Below, piece after piece: positions 1 through 3,843 of a stretch of 3,843 nt of DNA. The stretch is from Candidatus Babeliales bacterium (GTDB taxonomy: Bacteria; Babelota; Babeliae; Babelales; Vermiphilaceae): positions 1 to 3,843 of the forward strand of contig JBIOKB010000065.1 of assembly GCA_044451405.1 (NCBI GenBank), given 5' to 3'. Position 1 is the first letter of the stretch; the number at the start of each line of letters is the position of its first letter. Position numbers: made by a program.

Positions 1-3000
1 GATATATATATGAATAAGATACGGGAGTGGAGAGCGCAATACAAAAAGGAGCTTAAATATGACAAAATCTGCTATTAAATTTTCTCGTGATAAAAAAGGG
101 AACAAAGCGCGGGTGGTAATGCCTATCAAACAATTTGAAAAGCTTATGGATGAATTGGAAGAACTTAAGGATTTAGCTGATGTTTACGAGATAAAAAGTA
201 AAAATTTTAAGTCAATTCCCTACGAAAAAGTAAGAAAAAAGATTTTTAGCAAATGAAGCAAAGAAAAAGTTTCGAGGGTTATGCATTGGAGTTAGCACCT
301 TCTGCTGAAAAACAACTAAAAAAGTTGGAAACGAGTGTTGCCAAAGCTATTGATGAAAAACTAGAAGACTTGATTGAAGGGGTGCCTAATCTTGACATTA
401 GGAAGATGGAAGGTGCAGATGATACGTACAGATTACGCTGTGGTGATTACCGCGTGATTTTTGAAGTAAAAAAACATATCGTGACAATTTTGGTAATTAA
501 AATTGCTCATCGCAAAGAAGTATATAGAGATTAATATGGCTAAGAAAAAAAAATACCCTAAGATTAATCCTTCTTTTATTGAAGACCACAATGGAAAGAT
601 AGTTGAAGTGAGTTTTCCCTATAAAGTTTATGAATCTATTTTTGAAGAAATGGATGAATTAAAGGATAAAATATCTACGTTAAAGAAAAAAACAGTAAAG
701 AAGAAAACTGCAAAAAAGAGTATGTAAGATAATAGAGCCCTTGAGAGTTAATTCTCAAGGGCTTTTTGCTGCGCAAATATGTGGTACACTTATACTATAC
801 GGGTTCAAAAATAATTAATTTCAACAGAAAGGACCACGATGATTTCTAGAATTTTCTGTGCAGTACTCTGTTTATTAACAGTATATGTATATGGATCAGA
901 GATAGGGCGTATAGAATTTGAAATGCATCCTGATAAGACATGTTATATAAATCATCTTTCTGCGAGAAAGAAGTGCTATGCTTATAGAACTCAGGCTACT
1001 GAATATAGAGGCGGGATGGTAGATAAAGTTGCGCAGGATTGCGAGCGAGTATCAGCAGAGAAAGCTAAAGAGTGGTACCATCAATTTGAGAGGGAATATA
1101 AAATTCAAGGAGACACGAACATTTTTGTTTTAGAAGAGAAAGAACGTAAAAAAATAGAGCTGCTAACAAGCGAATCTGTGGGTTTAGCTGTGGTGGCTAT
1201 GGTTGCAGCAGGCATTTTGTTTGACCAATCTGTGAATTTTTCGTCTATGTTCTCATTGTGAGTTAGTTAAAGTATTCTTCAGATTTTTCTTTGGTTTCTC
1301 GTGCAGGGTGTTCAAGCTTAACGCTCTGCTTATGCTCTTCAAATCCAAATTTGATAATCAAATCAATAAAATCCATAGGCTTAATGCCAATTTCAGCAGC
1401 TTGATGGAAAATGCACGTAGCTGGTGTCATGCCAGGCAACGTATTAACTTCAATAATAACAACCCGCTCAGCGCCAGTAGGGCTTTGCGCTGCTGATTGA
1501 TAAAAACAATCAATGCGCGCGTAGCCGCGACAGCCAAGAAACTCGTACGCCCGTTCCATAGTGCGTTGTACAAGCGTGAGTGTCTGCTCTGGTAATGGTG
1601 CTGGTGTCTGATTTTCACCAGCGCCCGGTAAAAATTTTTCTTCGATAGAAAGAATATCTGAAGCTGTTACGGTTTGACTTGGTGGTAACGCCTGAGGTTT
1701 TTCGTTACCAATGACGCCTACGGTAAGTTCCATGCCAACAATACATTCTTCAACGAGTGCATGGTTTTTACCATGAGCAAAGATAGTTTCAATATGGGTG
1801 ACAAGATCAGTAGTGTTGTTGGCTTTTGCAACCATGACGCTGCAGCCATCATCATGAGGTTTAATAATTGCAGGTAACCCAATAGTTGTTGTTATCGTTT
1901 CAAGTAAAGCTTCTTTATTGGTGAGCCATTCGTGGTGCGCAATCAGCAGGCCGCGCGGGACATCAATGCCCTTGCTGTGTAAAAATTGGGTAGTTTTGTA
2001 TTTATCCATGCATAATGAGCTGGCGAGTATGCCTGAACCATTATACGGTACCCCCAACATTTCAAGAGCACCTTGGACGCTGCCATTTTCACCAGCACCG
2101 CCATGAAGCCCAATAAACACAAAGTCAGCAATATTTGGGAGATCATTCCAGGCAACGTAAGAACTTTTATCAACCATACTTTCTATTTCTTTAGTTGAAT
2201 TGCGGACTAATAATGATTGATTAAGTTTGTAAAGCTCCATAGAGCTGCTTACAAACAGGGGAATAACCGTGTATTTGTGAGGAGAAAGTTTAAAGGTAAT
2301 ATTTCTTCCTGATTCCAATGATATTTCTCGCTCATTAGAATTGCCGCCCATTAATACGGCTACGCGTGTTTTATGTGTTTCCATGGAGGTCTGTTTTTCC
2401 TGGGTAGAGAACGTTGCAGTATCAAGCATGCCGTAGGCATGAAGTTCTGTTTCAATAAGATGATTTATAAGTTGTGTATGGCCCATGTTAATTTCAGCTG
2501 CTTCACGGAATAAAAAACTTGCAGGTCCCATGCCCGATAAGGTGTTTGGGTCAACAATAACAATCCGATTATCTTCTGTTACAAAGCCATCAATACGTGA
2601 AATGTTGGTGATACCAAGTGCATGCGTAGTTTGTATGCATACATCATGAATGCGTTGTATGGTGCGTGTATCACATCGAGCGGGAGTAAATTTCTGAGCG
2701 CGGCCGGGCATATATTTTTGTTCATAATCATAAAAATGGCTTTCTGGCTCAGGAACAATTTCTGTTGGTGGTAACGGTACTAATACTCCGCTATTGTAAT
2801 CAGTAATGGTAATGCATGAAAATTCCATACCACTAACTTTTTCTTCAATAAGAACTGATTGTGCTTTATGAGGATCAACAAAACAGGCACGCTTAAGTGC
2901 TTCATGAAGATCGTTAGTATCAAATACAACGGTGATTCCCAAACTGGAACCTTCTTGATGTGGTTTTACTACGTAGGGCAGGGGTATGCGTTCAGCGGCT

Positions 3001-3843
3001 AGCTGTTGTTCAATGCTGTGTTGGTAGATGTCAAAATCACGTACTTGATCAGGGGTTACCGTGATACTTGCAGGAACATCTATGCCATTATGCTTAAGAA
3101 ATTCTTTTTGCACCGCTTTATCCATGCACAGGGCGCTGGAAAAAACTTTAGACCCTAAATACGGAACACCAAGTATTTCTAAAAATCCTTGCACCGTACC
3201 ATCTTCTGCATATTTACCATGTACGGCAAGATACATAAAATCAATAAGCTCAGGTATATCATCCCAGGTAATGTGACGTGCTTGGGTAGCAAGGCGATGT
3301 TCAAAGTCAGCTATTTTTCCTCGATGCAAAAAGTGCCATGGCAATATATATAAGGTTCCAGCTGCGGTTTGAAAAATAGGAATGATGTCATAGCGAGCAG
3401 TATCTAAATGATCACAGACGGTGCGCCCTGAATTAAAAGAGACTTCCCGTTCAATTGATTTACCGCCCATTAAAACGCCGACACGAATTTTATTCATATG
3501 CCAACCTGTTAGATCTATTAAAAAGTAATGCTTTGCTTAGGTTAATAGTTTATAGAGTGATGTAAAGAAAAAGACTATTCGTGTGTAATGTAAAAAACTG
3601 ATGCGCTAGTTATTTAGATGTTTTTATTTTCATGTAGCATAAAAAGATTGAAAATGCTTATAAGAAAAGCTTTAACAACATTAAAAAACTGATACACTCA
3701 AGTTTTTATTGGGGTAAAAAACTATAACAGATATATCAACATGAGGATACACATGAATATCTATAGATATATGCAATGCGCAGTAGTATGTTTGGGAATG
3801 CAGAGTTATGTAGGTGCTACGGAAATGGTGCGAGCTTCTAAAC

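What a model noticed while it worked through the whole genome (the two positions that open the first line are those of the whole stretch)
1263..3497. Tandem D-Ala-D-Ala ligase fusion with a Tyr-type and a Phe-type module
One 744-aa protein holds two complete Ddl modules. The first keeps the Ser and Tyr of dipeptide ligases (EGSS, K-Y). The second has DGCS and K-F in every genome compared, the change that I recall as marking D-Ala-D-lactate-type ligases. The fusion is kept across the phylum.
Evidence so far: - Pfam finds both Ddl domains twice. - The halves are 33% identical over 354 residues. - 72 of 81 genomes have one match over both modules, 3 more have two pieces in one frame, 1 is truncated, 2 match the first module only and 3 have none. 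- K-Y 6/6 in the first module and K-F 6/6 in the second, in six genomes of five families. - The 36 PDB matches at E<=1e-20 are all chains of 306-386 aa. The second module's hits include VanA (top hit) and a D-Ala:D-Lac ligase. - A VanX-like dipeptidase lies at C16:879-1643.
(Added by a program. Inside this text positions count along the whole contig: contig position 1 is position 1 of the stretch shown here. "Call 12" and the like, gene names such as g00115 and contig names such as C1 are that model's own, and its searches are not shown. The text may have been shortened before it was handed on; [...] marks where a part breaks off. The agent that wrote the report below was given it as the finding of a first reader that could run no searches.)

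Follow-up and report, generated by a model that had tools for sequence, protein, structure and literature searches.

The report
Two-module D-alanine ligase, unequal sites
This gene really does join two different D-alanine-D-alanine ligase units in one protein, but it is an ordinary member of an old, widespread two-unit family (also reported in plants) whose altered second active site has never been tested.

Summary
Window 1263-3497 (minus strand) is one 744-aa ORF with two complete Ddl modules, 33% identical to each other. Module N carries Ser150/Tyr216 (E. coli DdlB numbering) and module C carries Cys/Phe. "VanA top hit" was not reproduced: DdlA is top for both halves.

The fusion is not special to this phylum. 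The same N-type/C-type pair occurs in Dependentiae (117 of 121 genomes matched), in Bacteroidota and in Alphaproteobacteria-like MAGs. Papers describe plant DDL as a fusion of two DDL enzymes. In 235 tandem proteins, six positions differ between the modules and are fixed in each. Four of them are active-site residues (S150C, Y216F, E270D in N, S281T). All ATP, Mg and catalytic residues are kept in both modules.

This protein is the genome's only Ddl, next to complete MurC-F, so it is most likely the housekeeping supplier of D-Ala-D-Ala.

The D-Ala-D-lactate reading is only partly supported. Phe at 216 does mark lactic-acid-bacterial depsipeptide ligases. However, no D-lactate dehydrogenase was found, Van profiles fall far below their cut-offs, and the VanX-like protein looks exported.

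This scan has met the same family before on other DNA. I class it as a new member of a known kind. The open question is what the C site makes.

The parts
1263..3497 (-). Whole gene: 744-aa two-module D-alanine ligase (stop codon at 1263-1265)
   Evidence: ORF list and translation. Pfam finds PF01820 and PF07478 in two stretches each. Codon coordinates were checked.
2400..3497 (-). Module N (residues 1-366): canonical-looking Ddl with E16, S184-S185, K261-Y262, R301, D303, D316, N318, S327-F328
   Evidence: Alignment to DdlA in PDB. DdlB-numbered mapping. Falls in the N-module clade of the family (96*).
2376..2399 (-). Linker (residues 367-374), the least confident internal stretch of the model
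   Evidence: AF2 block pLDDT is 60-81 around residues 361-380. HMM envelopes meet at 373/374.
1320..2375 (-). Module C (residues 375-726): Ddl with E389, C552-S553, K621-F622, R661, D663, E683, N685, T694-C695, and ILSI in place of FYDY
   Evidence: Alignment to DdlA. DdlB-numbered mapping. Falls in the C-module clade (99* for 44 rows).
1266..1319 (-). C-terminal tail (residues 727-744), predicted disordered
   Evidence: pLDDT below 50 for residues 727-744. Relatives align only to about residue 725.
2946..2948 (-). Codon of Ser184 (DdlB Ser150) in module N
   Evidence: Ser in 235 of 235 N modules.
2712..2714 (-). Codon of Tyr262 (DdlB Tyr216) in module N
   Evidence: Tyr in 235 of 235 N modules.
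1842..1844 (-). Codon of Cys552 (DdlB Ser150 position) in module C
   Evidence: Cys in 231 of 235 C modules.
1632..1634 (-). Codon of Phe622 (DdlB Tyr216 position) in module C
   Evidence: Phe in 234 of 235 C modules, the other being a gap.

Best explanation
This is the organism's housekeeping D-alanine ligase, in the two-module form.

Two anciently diverged Ddl paralogues, an N type and a C type, always work as a pair. They are usually fused, and sometimes occur as two adjacent genes. In this protein they pack as one rigid body (inferred). That body may be an internal counterpart of the dimer I recall for ordinary Ddl, but the geometry was not checked.

Each module keeps its own full ATP-grasp active site. 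Module N has the canonical residues and makes D-Ala-D-Ala by the usual acyl-phosphate route. Module C keeps every residue needed to bind ATP and Mg and to activate the first D-Ala. It has lost the Ser150-Tyr216 hydrogen-bond pair and has changed the pocket for the second substrate (T281, C282, Leu at 210). I expect it to be an active ligase with a different acceptor preference or different kinetics.

My best guess is that in the cell it still contributes mainly D-Ala-D-Ala, which MurF adds to the cell-wall precursor.

What is shown: the anatomy, the conservation, the sole-copy status and the pathway context. What is inferred: activity of both sites, the packing, and the product of the C site.
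For: - Only one Ddl locus exists in a genome that is 95.68% complete. MurC, MurD, MurE (split over two contig ends) and MurF are all present above their cut-offs.
- Seventeen positions are at least 97% identical in both modules across 235 tandem proteins. They include E15, H63, E68, K97, S151, E187, K215, R255, D257 and N272.
- Both modules are about equally conserved within Dependentiae: 60.9% for N and 63.7% for C, mean pairwise identity.
- In the tree, N modules of all three groups form one clade (96*). C modules form another (99* for 44 rows). The subtrees mirror each other.
- Two-gene forms keep the same order and signatures in 3 genomes. The genes overlap by 32 or 17 nt, or are 5 nt apart.
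- Relatives are fused to MurF, or to MurF plus alanine racemase (P0234, P0235).
- The AF2 model of the whole chain has pLDDT 91.4 and pTM 0.87. The Atlas's own model has pTM 0.79 and has full-length structural neighbours in Bacteroidota (TM 0.84-0.87) and Streptophyta (TM 0.74 over 670 residues).
Against: - There is no biochemistry for any bacterial member, so activity of either site is untested.
- Each half alone scores just under NCBI's curated Ddl cut-offs: 236.3 and 225.0 against 245.65 for TIGR01205.
- Module N is itself unusual: Asp for Glu270, Ser for Pro275, Phe for Leu282.
- 18 of 61 Dependentiae genomes show no alanine racemase. 12 of them matched the ligase, so the source of D-Ala there is unknown.
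- I could not obtain a plant sequence, so the kinship with plant DDL rests on papers and on a predicted-structure neighbour.
- The shape of the inter-module packing was not compared with a solved Ddl dimer.
Confidence: 0.6

Rival explanations
1. Module C is a D-Ala-D-lactate (depsipeptide) ligase. The cell would then make two kinds of precursor ends, D-Ala-D-Ala from module N and D-Ala-D-Lac from module C.
For: - Phe sits at the DdlB Tyr216 position in 234 of 235 C modules, and Cys at Ser150 in 231 of 235.
- Phe against Tyr at this site decides depsipeptide against dipeptide activity in lactic acid bacteria (PMC5996685, abstract and introduction).
- A DdlB Y216F mutant exists as a solved structure (1iow). 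Module C scores it slightly above wild type (124.6 against 123.2 bits), while module N does the reverse.
- From my own recall, not from a call: DdlB Y216F and S150A gained depsipeptide synthesis.
- An AU test did not reject a tree with C modules held together with VanA and VanB (p 0.078).
Against: - No 2-hydroxyacid dehydrogenase of the VanH/LdhD type was found in the genome.
- Module C is not nearer to LmDdl2 or to Van profiles than module N is.
- The free tree puts VanA and VanB with DdlA-type references across a 96* branch.
- The VanX-like protein looks exported and lies on another contig.
- Plant DDL is likewise a two-DDL fusion, though its kinship is untested here, and moss yields an Ala-Ala pentapeptide.
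Confidence: 0.15
2. Module C joins D-Ala to another acceptor, such as glycine, D-serine or another D-amino acid. The product could serve a modified wall or something that is not a wall precursor.
For: - All changes that distinguish C from N and are fixed in both cluster in the acceptor and omega-loop region: positions 150, 216, 281, plus 210 and 282.
- A review notes plant D-Ala dipeptides with other amino acids whose enzymes are unknown (PMC7432710, passage).
- This genome has two alanine-racemase paralogues, 45% identical.
Against: - The D-Ser ligase markers are absent. VanG's Phe252 aligns with DdlB Tyr210, where module C has Leu, and position 282 is Cys, not Arg.
- D_ala_D_ser profiles are far below their cut-off: 162.3 against 520.
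- Two racemases are found in only 6 of 61 genomes of the phylum.
Confidence: 0.12
3. One module is a non-catalytic partner, a structural or regulatory pseudo-enzyme, that merely supports the other.
For: - Each module departs from the canonical set at some active-site positions: C at 150, 216 and 281; N at 270, 275 and 282.
- Each half alone falls slightly under the curated Ddl cut-offs.
Against: - Every ATP-, Mg- and substrate-activating residue examined is kept in both modules in at least 97% of 235 proteins from three deeply split groups.
- Both modules are equally conserved.
- Arabidopsis lines keep a transcript for the C-terminal module alone, which the authors suggest may be functional (PMC9954125, passages).
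Confidence: 0.08

Closest known systems
Plant chloroplast DDL (Arabidopsis At-DDL, Physcomitrium PpDDL, rice OsDDL)
   Same: - One polypeptide made of two putative DDL enzymes (PMC9954125, passages and supplement legend).
- The moss gene is needed for plastid division and for D-Ala dimerisation (same paper).
- A Streptophyta cluster of 918-aa proteins is a full-length structural neighbour of this protein's Atlas model (TM 0.74, 670 residues aligned).
   Different: - Plant proteins are longer. I recall that they are nuclear-encoded with a targeting sequence.
- I could not fetch a plant sequence, so I did not test whether they carry the same N-type and C-type residues.
- Hirano 2016 and Machida 2006 are not held in the library.
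Canonical single-module Ddl (E. coli DdlB, Salmonella DdlA 3i12)
   Same: - Same Pfam domains and same fold: target TM 0.77-0.92 for solved Ddl chains.
- Best PDB sequence match for both halves.
- All catalytic residues are shared.
   Different: - Two modules in one chain instead of a single module (which I recall acts as a homodimer).
- N has D270, S275 and F282. C has C150, F216, T281, C282 and L210.
- In the tree all tandem modules lie across a 96* branch from six references.
Leuconostoc LmDdl2 (1ehi) and other lactic-acid-bacterial D-Ala-D-Lac ligases; DdlB Y216F (1iow)
   Same: Phe at the omega-loop Tyr position of module C.
   Different: - There is no special sequence kinship: 1ehi ranks 34 of 36 for both halves.
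- Here the Phe-type site is permanently paired with a Tyr-type site.
- No source of D-lactate was found in the genome.
VanA/VanB acquired D-Ala-D-Lac ligases
   Same: Same superfamily and fold.
   Different: - VanA and VanB have E-V and E-N at positions 215-216 and Arg at 282 in my alignment. Module C has K-F and Cys.
- Profile scores are 119.6 against 775 for VanA and 109.6 against 750 for VanB.
- There is no adjacent vanH or vanX.
MurC-Ddl bifunctional protein (NF011171, which I recall as the Chlamydia type)
   Same: A Ddl module fused to another enzyme of the same pathway.
   Different: The partner there is MurC, not a second Ddl. This protein scores 225.6 against a cut-off of 1015, and MurC is a separate gene here.

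Membership tests
Two-module (N-type + C-type) Ddl family, as found in Dependentiae, Bacteroidota and Alphaproteobacteria-like MAGs | Two complete Ddl modules in one chain, or in two adjacent genes | tested here: met
   Pfam finds two stretches of each domain. HMM envelopes are 1-373 and 374-744.
Two-module (N-type + C-type) Ddl family, as found in Dependentiae, Bacteroidota and Alphaproteobacteria-like MAGs | Module-specific fixed residues: N has S150, Y216, D270, S275, S281; C has C150, F216, E270, P275, T281 | tested here: met
   All are present in this protein. Each is fixed in at least 90% of 235 tandem proteins.
Two-module (N-type + C-type) Ddl family, as found in Dependentiae, Bacteroidota and Alphaproteobacteria-like MAGs | Each module falls in the corresponding clade of the family tree | tested here: met
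   N clade 96* (47 rows). C clade 99* (44 rows), or 91 for 46 rows. Quick IQ-TREE on 100 rows.
Plant DDL | Sequence kinship of both modules with plant DDL modules | tested here: inconclusive
   - No plant sequence could be fetched.
- There is only a predicted-structure neighbour (Streptophyta cluster, TM 0.74).
- A paper states that moss Ddl is closest to the Fibrobacteres-Chlorobi-Bacteroidetes group (PMC9434261, passage).
D-alanine--D-alanine ligase (EC 6.3.2.4; TIGR01205, NF002378) | Score over the curated cut-off | tested here: inconclusive
   The whole protein passes: 456.6 against 245.65, and 470.7 against 243. Each half alone is just under: 236.3 and 225.0 against 245.65; 239.7 and 236.4 against 243.
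D-alanine--D-alanine ligase (EC 6.3.2.4; TIGR01205, NF002378) | ATP-grasp catalytic set (E15, K97, K144, E187, K215, R255, D257, E/D270, N272) | tested here: met
   Present in both modules.
D-alanine--D-alanine ligase (EC 6.3.2.4; TIGR01205, NF002378) | Makes D-Ala-D-Ala | not testable with these tools
   Needs an enzyme assay.
Van-type D-Ala-D-Lac ligases (NF000206, VanA, VanB and others) | Score over the curated cut-off | tested here: not met
   Module C scores 137.3 against 550, and module N 142.6.
Van-type D-Ala-D-Lac ligases (NF000206, VanA, VanB and others) | Partner genes: VanH dehydrogenase and a cytoplasmic VanX beside the ligase | tested here: not met
   - No PF00389 match. The PF02826 hit is gnd.
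- The M15 genes lie on contig C16, score below the VanX cut-off (214.4 against 320), and have signal-like N-termini.
- Neighbours of the ligase in 5 relatives include no cell-wall genes.
Lactic-acid-bacterial D-Ala-D-Lac ligases (LmDdl2 type) | Phe at the position of DdlB Tyr216 | tested here: met
   F622 in module C. The rule is from PMC5996685.
Lactic-acid-bacterial D-Ala-D-Lac ligases (LmDdl2 type) | Closer sequence kinship to LmDdl2 than to dipeptide ligases | tested here: not met
   1ehi ranks 34 of 36 and scores 89.9 bits, against 134 bits for DdlA 3i12.
D-Ala-D-Ser ligases (VanC, VanE, VanG) | Score over the cut-off, and the VanG-type Phe at the DdlB 210 position with Arg at 282 | tested here: not met
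   - NF000207 scores 162.3 against 520.
- VanG F252 aligns with DdlB Y210, where module C has Leu.
- Position 282 is Cys.
- The Arg-282 criterion is my recall. Here only VanA and VanB showed Arg there.

The most novel reading that the evidence does not exclude
The C-type module is a ligase for a second product, D-Ala joined to something other than D-Ala (D-lactate, glycine or another acceptor). Dependentiae, some Bacteroidota, Rickettsiales-like bacteria and plant plastids would then all make an unrecognised D-alanyl compound alongside D-Ala-D-Ala, from a permanently paired two-site enzyme.
Probability: 0.2. Interest if true: 0.7.

Novelty: new member of a known kind. Interest (0 to 1): 0.35.

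Why it matters
- D-Ala-D-Ala ligase is a classic antibiotic target. The identity of one omega-loop residue is used to predict glycopeptide susceptibility.
- Here, a large family pairs a Tyr-type site with a Phe/Cys-type site in every member. It spans thousands of proteins in metagenomes and, per papers, includes the plant enzyme.
- If the second site only makes more D-Ala-D-Ala, the 'Phe means depsipeptide' rule does not carry over outside lactic acid bacteria.
- If it makes something else, cell-wall chemistry in several phyla and in plastids has a missing product.
- Cultured carriers (Marinoscillum, Thermonema) make the question directly testable.
- For this window alone the finding is ordinary: it is the housekeeping ligase of a reduced genome.

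Tried and rejected
- **Complex prediction (module N against module C).** It never ran, so binding between the modules was not tested that way.
- **Plant sequences.**
  - Hirano 2016 and Machida 2006 are not held.
  - The At-DDL sequence in the supplement of PMC9954125 is a picture.
  - No plant protein appeared by name in the lists.
- **The search for related loci with the Cytophagales protein.** It returned only its own locus.
- **Sample of 151 Bacteroidota genomes.** Only the centre genome showed the tandem form. The other 38 matches were to frames of 329-552 aa.
- **Two racemases serving two substrates.** Rejected as a general idea: 6 of 61 genomes have two, and 18 have none.
- **VanC/VanG Phe at position 216.** I first recalled it there. 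The VanG alignment put it at DdlB Tyr210 instead, so I dropped that argument.
- **PMC12004154.** It gave nothing on VanC2 residues.
- **Gene neighbourhood.** Four of 5 relatives have an RNase_T exonuclease upstream. None has cell-wall genes nearby.
- **Paper searches for a tandem bacterial Ddl or a Dependentiae Ddl.** Nothing relevant was found.
- **Window scans.** tRNA, promoter/terminator and PADLOC scans added nothing.
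Full report
**What is in the window**

The window is a whole 3843-base contig (C65) of a 1.02-Mb, 89-contig genome, 95.68% complete, with G+C 0.40. On the minus strand, 1263..3497 is a single ORF of 744 aa (codon positions checked).

Pfam finds Dala_Dala_lig_N and Dala_Dala_lig_C in two stretches each. A profile built from the two halves splits the protein at residues 373/374. The halves are 33% identical (117 of 354, E 9e-65).

Against solved structures, each half matches 36 distinct sequences at E<=1e-10, all of them single Ddl-family chains of 306-386 aa. 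The best match for both halves is Salmonella DdlA (3i12). VanA (1e4e) ranks 19-20 of 36 for the second half, and the Leuconostoc D-Ala:D-Lac ligase (1ehi) ranks 34 of 36 for both halves.

**Active-site residues**

I fetched E. coli ddlB, an Enterobacter ddlA, vanA, vanB and two further ddl genes from annotated records. I then aligned them with the modules. In DdlB numbering:

| Position | Module N | Module C |
|---|---|---|
| 15 | E | E |
| 150 | S | C |
| 151 | S | S |
| 210 | Y | L |
| 215 | K | K |
| 216 | Y | F |
| 255 | R | R |
| 257 | D | D |
| 270 | D | E |
| 272 | N | N |
| 281 | S | T |
| 282 | F | C |

VanA and VanB do not have K-Y or K-F at 215-216 (they have E-V and E-N), and they carry Arg at 282.

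VanG (4fu0, titled a D-Ala:D-Ser ligase) keeps K257-Y258. Its Phe252 aligns with DdlB Tyr210. This corrected my own earlier recollection that the D-Ser ligases have Phe at position 216.

That Phe against Tyr at this position separates depsipeptide from dipeptide ligases in lactic acid bacteria is stated in PMC5996685 (abstract and introduction passages).

**The family**

The word-index search returned 4276 proteins at E<=1e-10 among 8000 scored candidates. The best 120 are all 725-825 aa and 62-71% identical. Where named, they are from Candidatus Dependentiae or Babeliales.

The exhaustive search of 50%-identity representatives gave 1497 proteins at E<=1e-30. Among its best 150 I saw three kinds of tandem protein:

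| Group | Typical length | Where found |
|---|---|---|
| A | about 705-754 aa | Dependentiae |
| B | about 840-1285 aa | Named members are Bacteroidota: Cytophagales, Chitinophagales, Marinoscillum, Thermonema |
| C | about 780-830 aa | Named members are MAGs labelled Rickettsiales, Alphaproteobacteria or Pseudomonadota, plus one Gammaproteobacteria and one Patescibacteria; some carry an N-terminal helix-turn-helix domain |

I defined the groups myself, by id range and by the length of the first module.

Of the 274 proteins then in hand, 235 passed my test for two complete modules and 8 for a single module. The other 31 (fragments and odd cases) were dropped.

**Module-specific signature**

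Counts across the 235 tandem proteins:

| DdlB position | N modules | C modules |
|---|---|---|
| 150 | Ser 235/235 | Cys 231/235 |
| 216 | Tyr 235/235 | Phe 234/235 (one gap) |
| 270 | Asp 234/235 | Glu 235/235 |
| 281 | Ser 231/235 | Thr 233/235 |

A systematic scan found six columns that are at least 90% fixed in both modules but differ between them. In this protein they are F65/I438, S184/C552, Y262/F622, D316/E683, S321/P688 and S327/T694.

Seventeen columns are at least 97% identical in both modules. They include E15, H63, E68, K97, S151, E187, K215, R255, D257 and N272.

Within group A the two modules are equally conserved: mean pairwise identity is 60.9% for N and 63.7% for C. N against C within one protein is 32.9%.

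These proteins are relatives of the query and of each other, so the counts are not independent observations.

**Tree**

I built a quick IQ-TREE (LG+G4) of 100 rows. The rows were 13 group A, 14 group B and 16 group C proteins sampled from 126, 41 and 68, each split into N and C, plus 8 singles and 6 references.

- The six references lie on one side of a 96* branch, and all tandem modules on the other.
- All N modules plus four single proteins form one clade (96*, 47 rows).
- All C modules form another (99* for 44 rows; 91 with two more singles).
- Groups A, B and C recur inside each clade.

The duplication therefore predates the split of the three groups, and the two modules have travelled together.

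There are two caveats. Only six references were used. An AU test also did not reject a tree with the C modules held together with VanA and VanB (55.8 log-likelihood units worse, p 0.078).

**Distribution in the phylum**

Of 121 genomes, 117 match at E<=1e-10:
- 103 have one match across both modules (two with an internal stop).
- 6 are in two or three pieces.
- 1 is truncated.
- 3 have two adjacent genes.
- 3 carry a group-C-type tandem protein instead.
- 1 has a weak partial match.
- 4 have none.

In the three two-gene cases the N-type gene comes first. The genes overlap by 32 or 17 nt or are 5 nt apart, and each keeps its signature.

A sample of 151 Bacteroidota genomes showed the tandem form only in the centre genome. 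In that genome it is the only clear Ddl, since the other PF07478 matches lie in frames of 454, 962 and 386 aa.

**Pathway context**

The tandem gene is the only Ddl match in this genome. MurC, MurD and MurF pass their NCBIfam cut-offs, and MurE is split over two contig ends.

There are two alanine racemase genes, 45% identical. However, only 6 of 61 genomes of the phylum have two, and 18 have none.

The PF02826 match is 6-phosphogluconate dehydrogenase. PF00389 has no match here, although it rings in 14 of 14 control genomes.

The VanX-like gene at C16:879-1643 scores 214.4 against a cut-off of 320. It begins with a signal-like, lipobox-like sequence, and a second, more distant M15 gene lies next to it.

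Some relatives of the ligase carry extra domains: MurF (1262 aa), MurF plus alanine racemase (1638 aa), or a PASTA domain (1244 aa). The first two tie the pair to the D-Ala branch that feeds MurF.

**Structure**

AlphaFold2 with my 60-sequence alignment gave mean pLDDT 91.4 and pTM 0.87 for the whole chain. Confidence is low only in the linker (blocks at 60-81) and in the last 18 residues.

The ESM Atlas holds this exact sequence, with pTM 0.79. Its full-length structural neighbours are:
- Bacteroidota clusters (TM 0.84-0.87, 714-716 residues aligned);
- a Streptophyta cluster of 918-aa proteins (TM 0.74, 670 residues aligned).

Foldseek against the PDB finds only single Ddl-family chains, each covering about half of the model (query TM about 0.4, target TM 0.77-0.92).

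A high pTM for a two-module chain suggests a fixed arrangement of the modules. I did not compare that arrangement with a solved Ddl dimer. The complex prediction never ran.

**Literature**

[quoted passage not shown] It also states that T-DNA lines still express the C-terminal one. The supplement legend shows the same scheme for rice (passages and legend).
- PMC7432710 lists DDL as characterised from Arabidopsis and Physcomitrella, and notes unexplained D-Ala dipeptides with other amino acids (passages).
- Searches for a tandem bacterial Ddl or for Ddl in Dependentiae/TM6 found nothing relevant in the held library. Subscription papers, including Hirano 2016, are not covered.

**Earlier notes of this scan**

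After I had reached this reading, a look-up showed at least ten earlier findings of the same family on other genomes, with the same conclusion. One of them says a plant example was tested, which I could not do.

**Verdict**

The protein is a regular member of an ancient two-module Ddl family and is most likely this organism's housekeeping D-Ala-D-Ala ligase. Both sites are probably active.

The D-Ala-D-lactate reading of the second module is a fair lead from two residues. It has no support from kinship, partner genes or substrate supply.

What the C-type site makes is open and testable.

Noticed in passing
window 59-727 (+): There is a RelB-like antitoxin ORF (59-256) and a ParE toxin ORF (253-534). 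A third small ORF (503-727) follows, with a weak RelB-like match, and overlaps the end of parE. The stretch is A+T-rich (G+C 0.31-0.34, against 0.40 for the genome). No PADLOC match.
   Followed up: partly
window 839-1261 (+): A 140-aa ORF with a hydrophobic, signal-like N-terminus and no Pfam or PADLOC family. It converges on the ligase gene, with the two stop codons 1 base apart.
   Followed up: partly
G000:C7 (L015:1468-2619 and L014:1417-2595): Two alanine racemase paralogues, 45% identical, are separated by a 254-aa ORF without a family. Only 6 of 61 genomes of the phylum have two copies.
   Followed up: partly
Dependentiae genomes: 18 of 61 genomes show no Ala_racemase_N match, yet 12 of them matched the two-module ligase (for example G007, G008, G010, G016). 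Where their D-alanine comes from is unexplained.
   Followed up: no
G000:C16 (L010:215-2313, minus strand): Two M15 (VanX-family) peptidase genes lie in tandem, both with signal-like N-termini, followed by a GNAT acetyltransferase.
   Followed up: partly
L015:511-1317 (G000:C7): A 269-aa ORF beside the racemase matches the DOT1 histone-methyltransferase domain (PF08123, E 4.1e-16). That is a eukaryote-like domain in this reduced genome.
   Followed up: no
proteins P0234, P0235, P0132 and hits: Relatives of the tandem ligase carry extra domains: MurF; MurF plus alanine racemase; PASTA; or an N-terminal HigA-like helix-turn-helix.
   Followed up: partly
G066, G077, G111 (family f7): Three Dependentiae genomes carry the divergent group-C type of tandem ligase (30-33% identity, frames of 812-826 aa). 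Two other genomes of the same family have the usual type. This suggests replacement by transfer.
   Followed up: no
L006:525-1703 (G000:C10): An AgcS-like amino-acid carrier (250 bits against a cut-off of 272.65) lies next to the 5' part of murE.
   Followed up: no
L022:2995-4866 (Bernardetia plasmid NZ_CP147018.1): A 623-aa protein annotated as D-alanine--D-alanine ligase matched in two pieces. It has neither the usual single length nor the tandem length.
   Followed up: no
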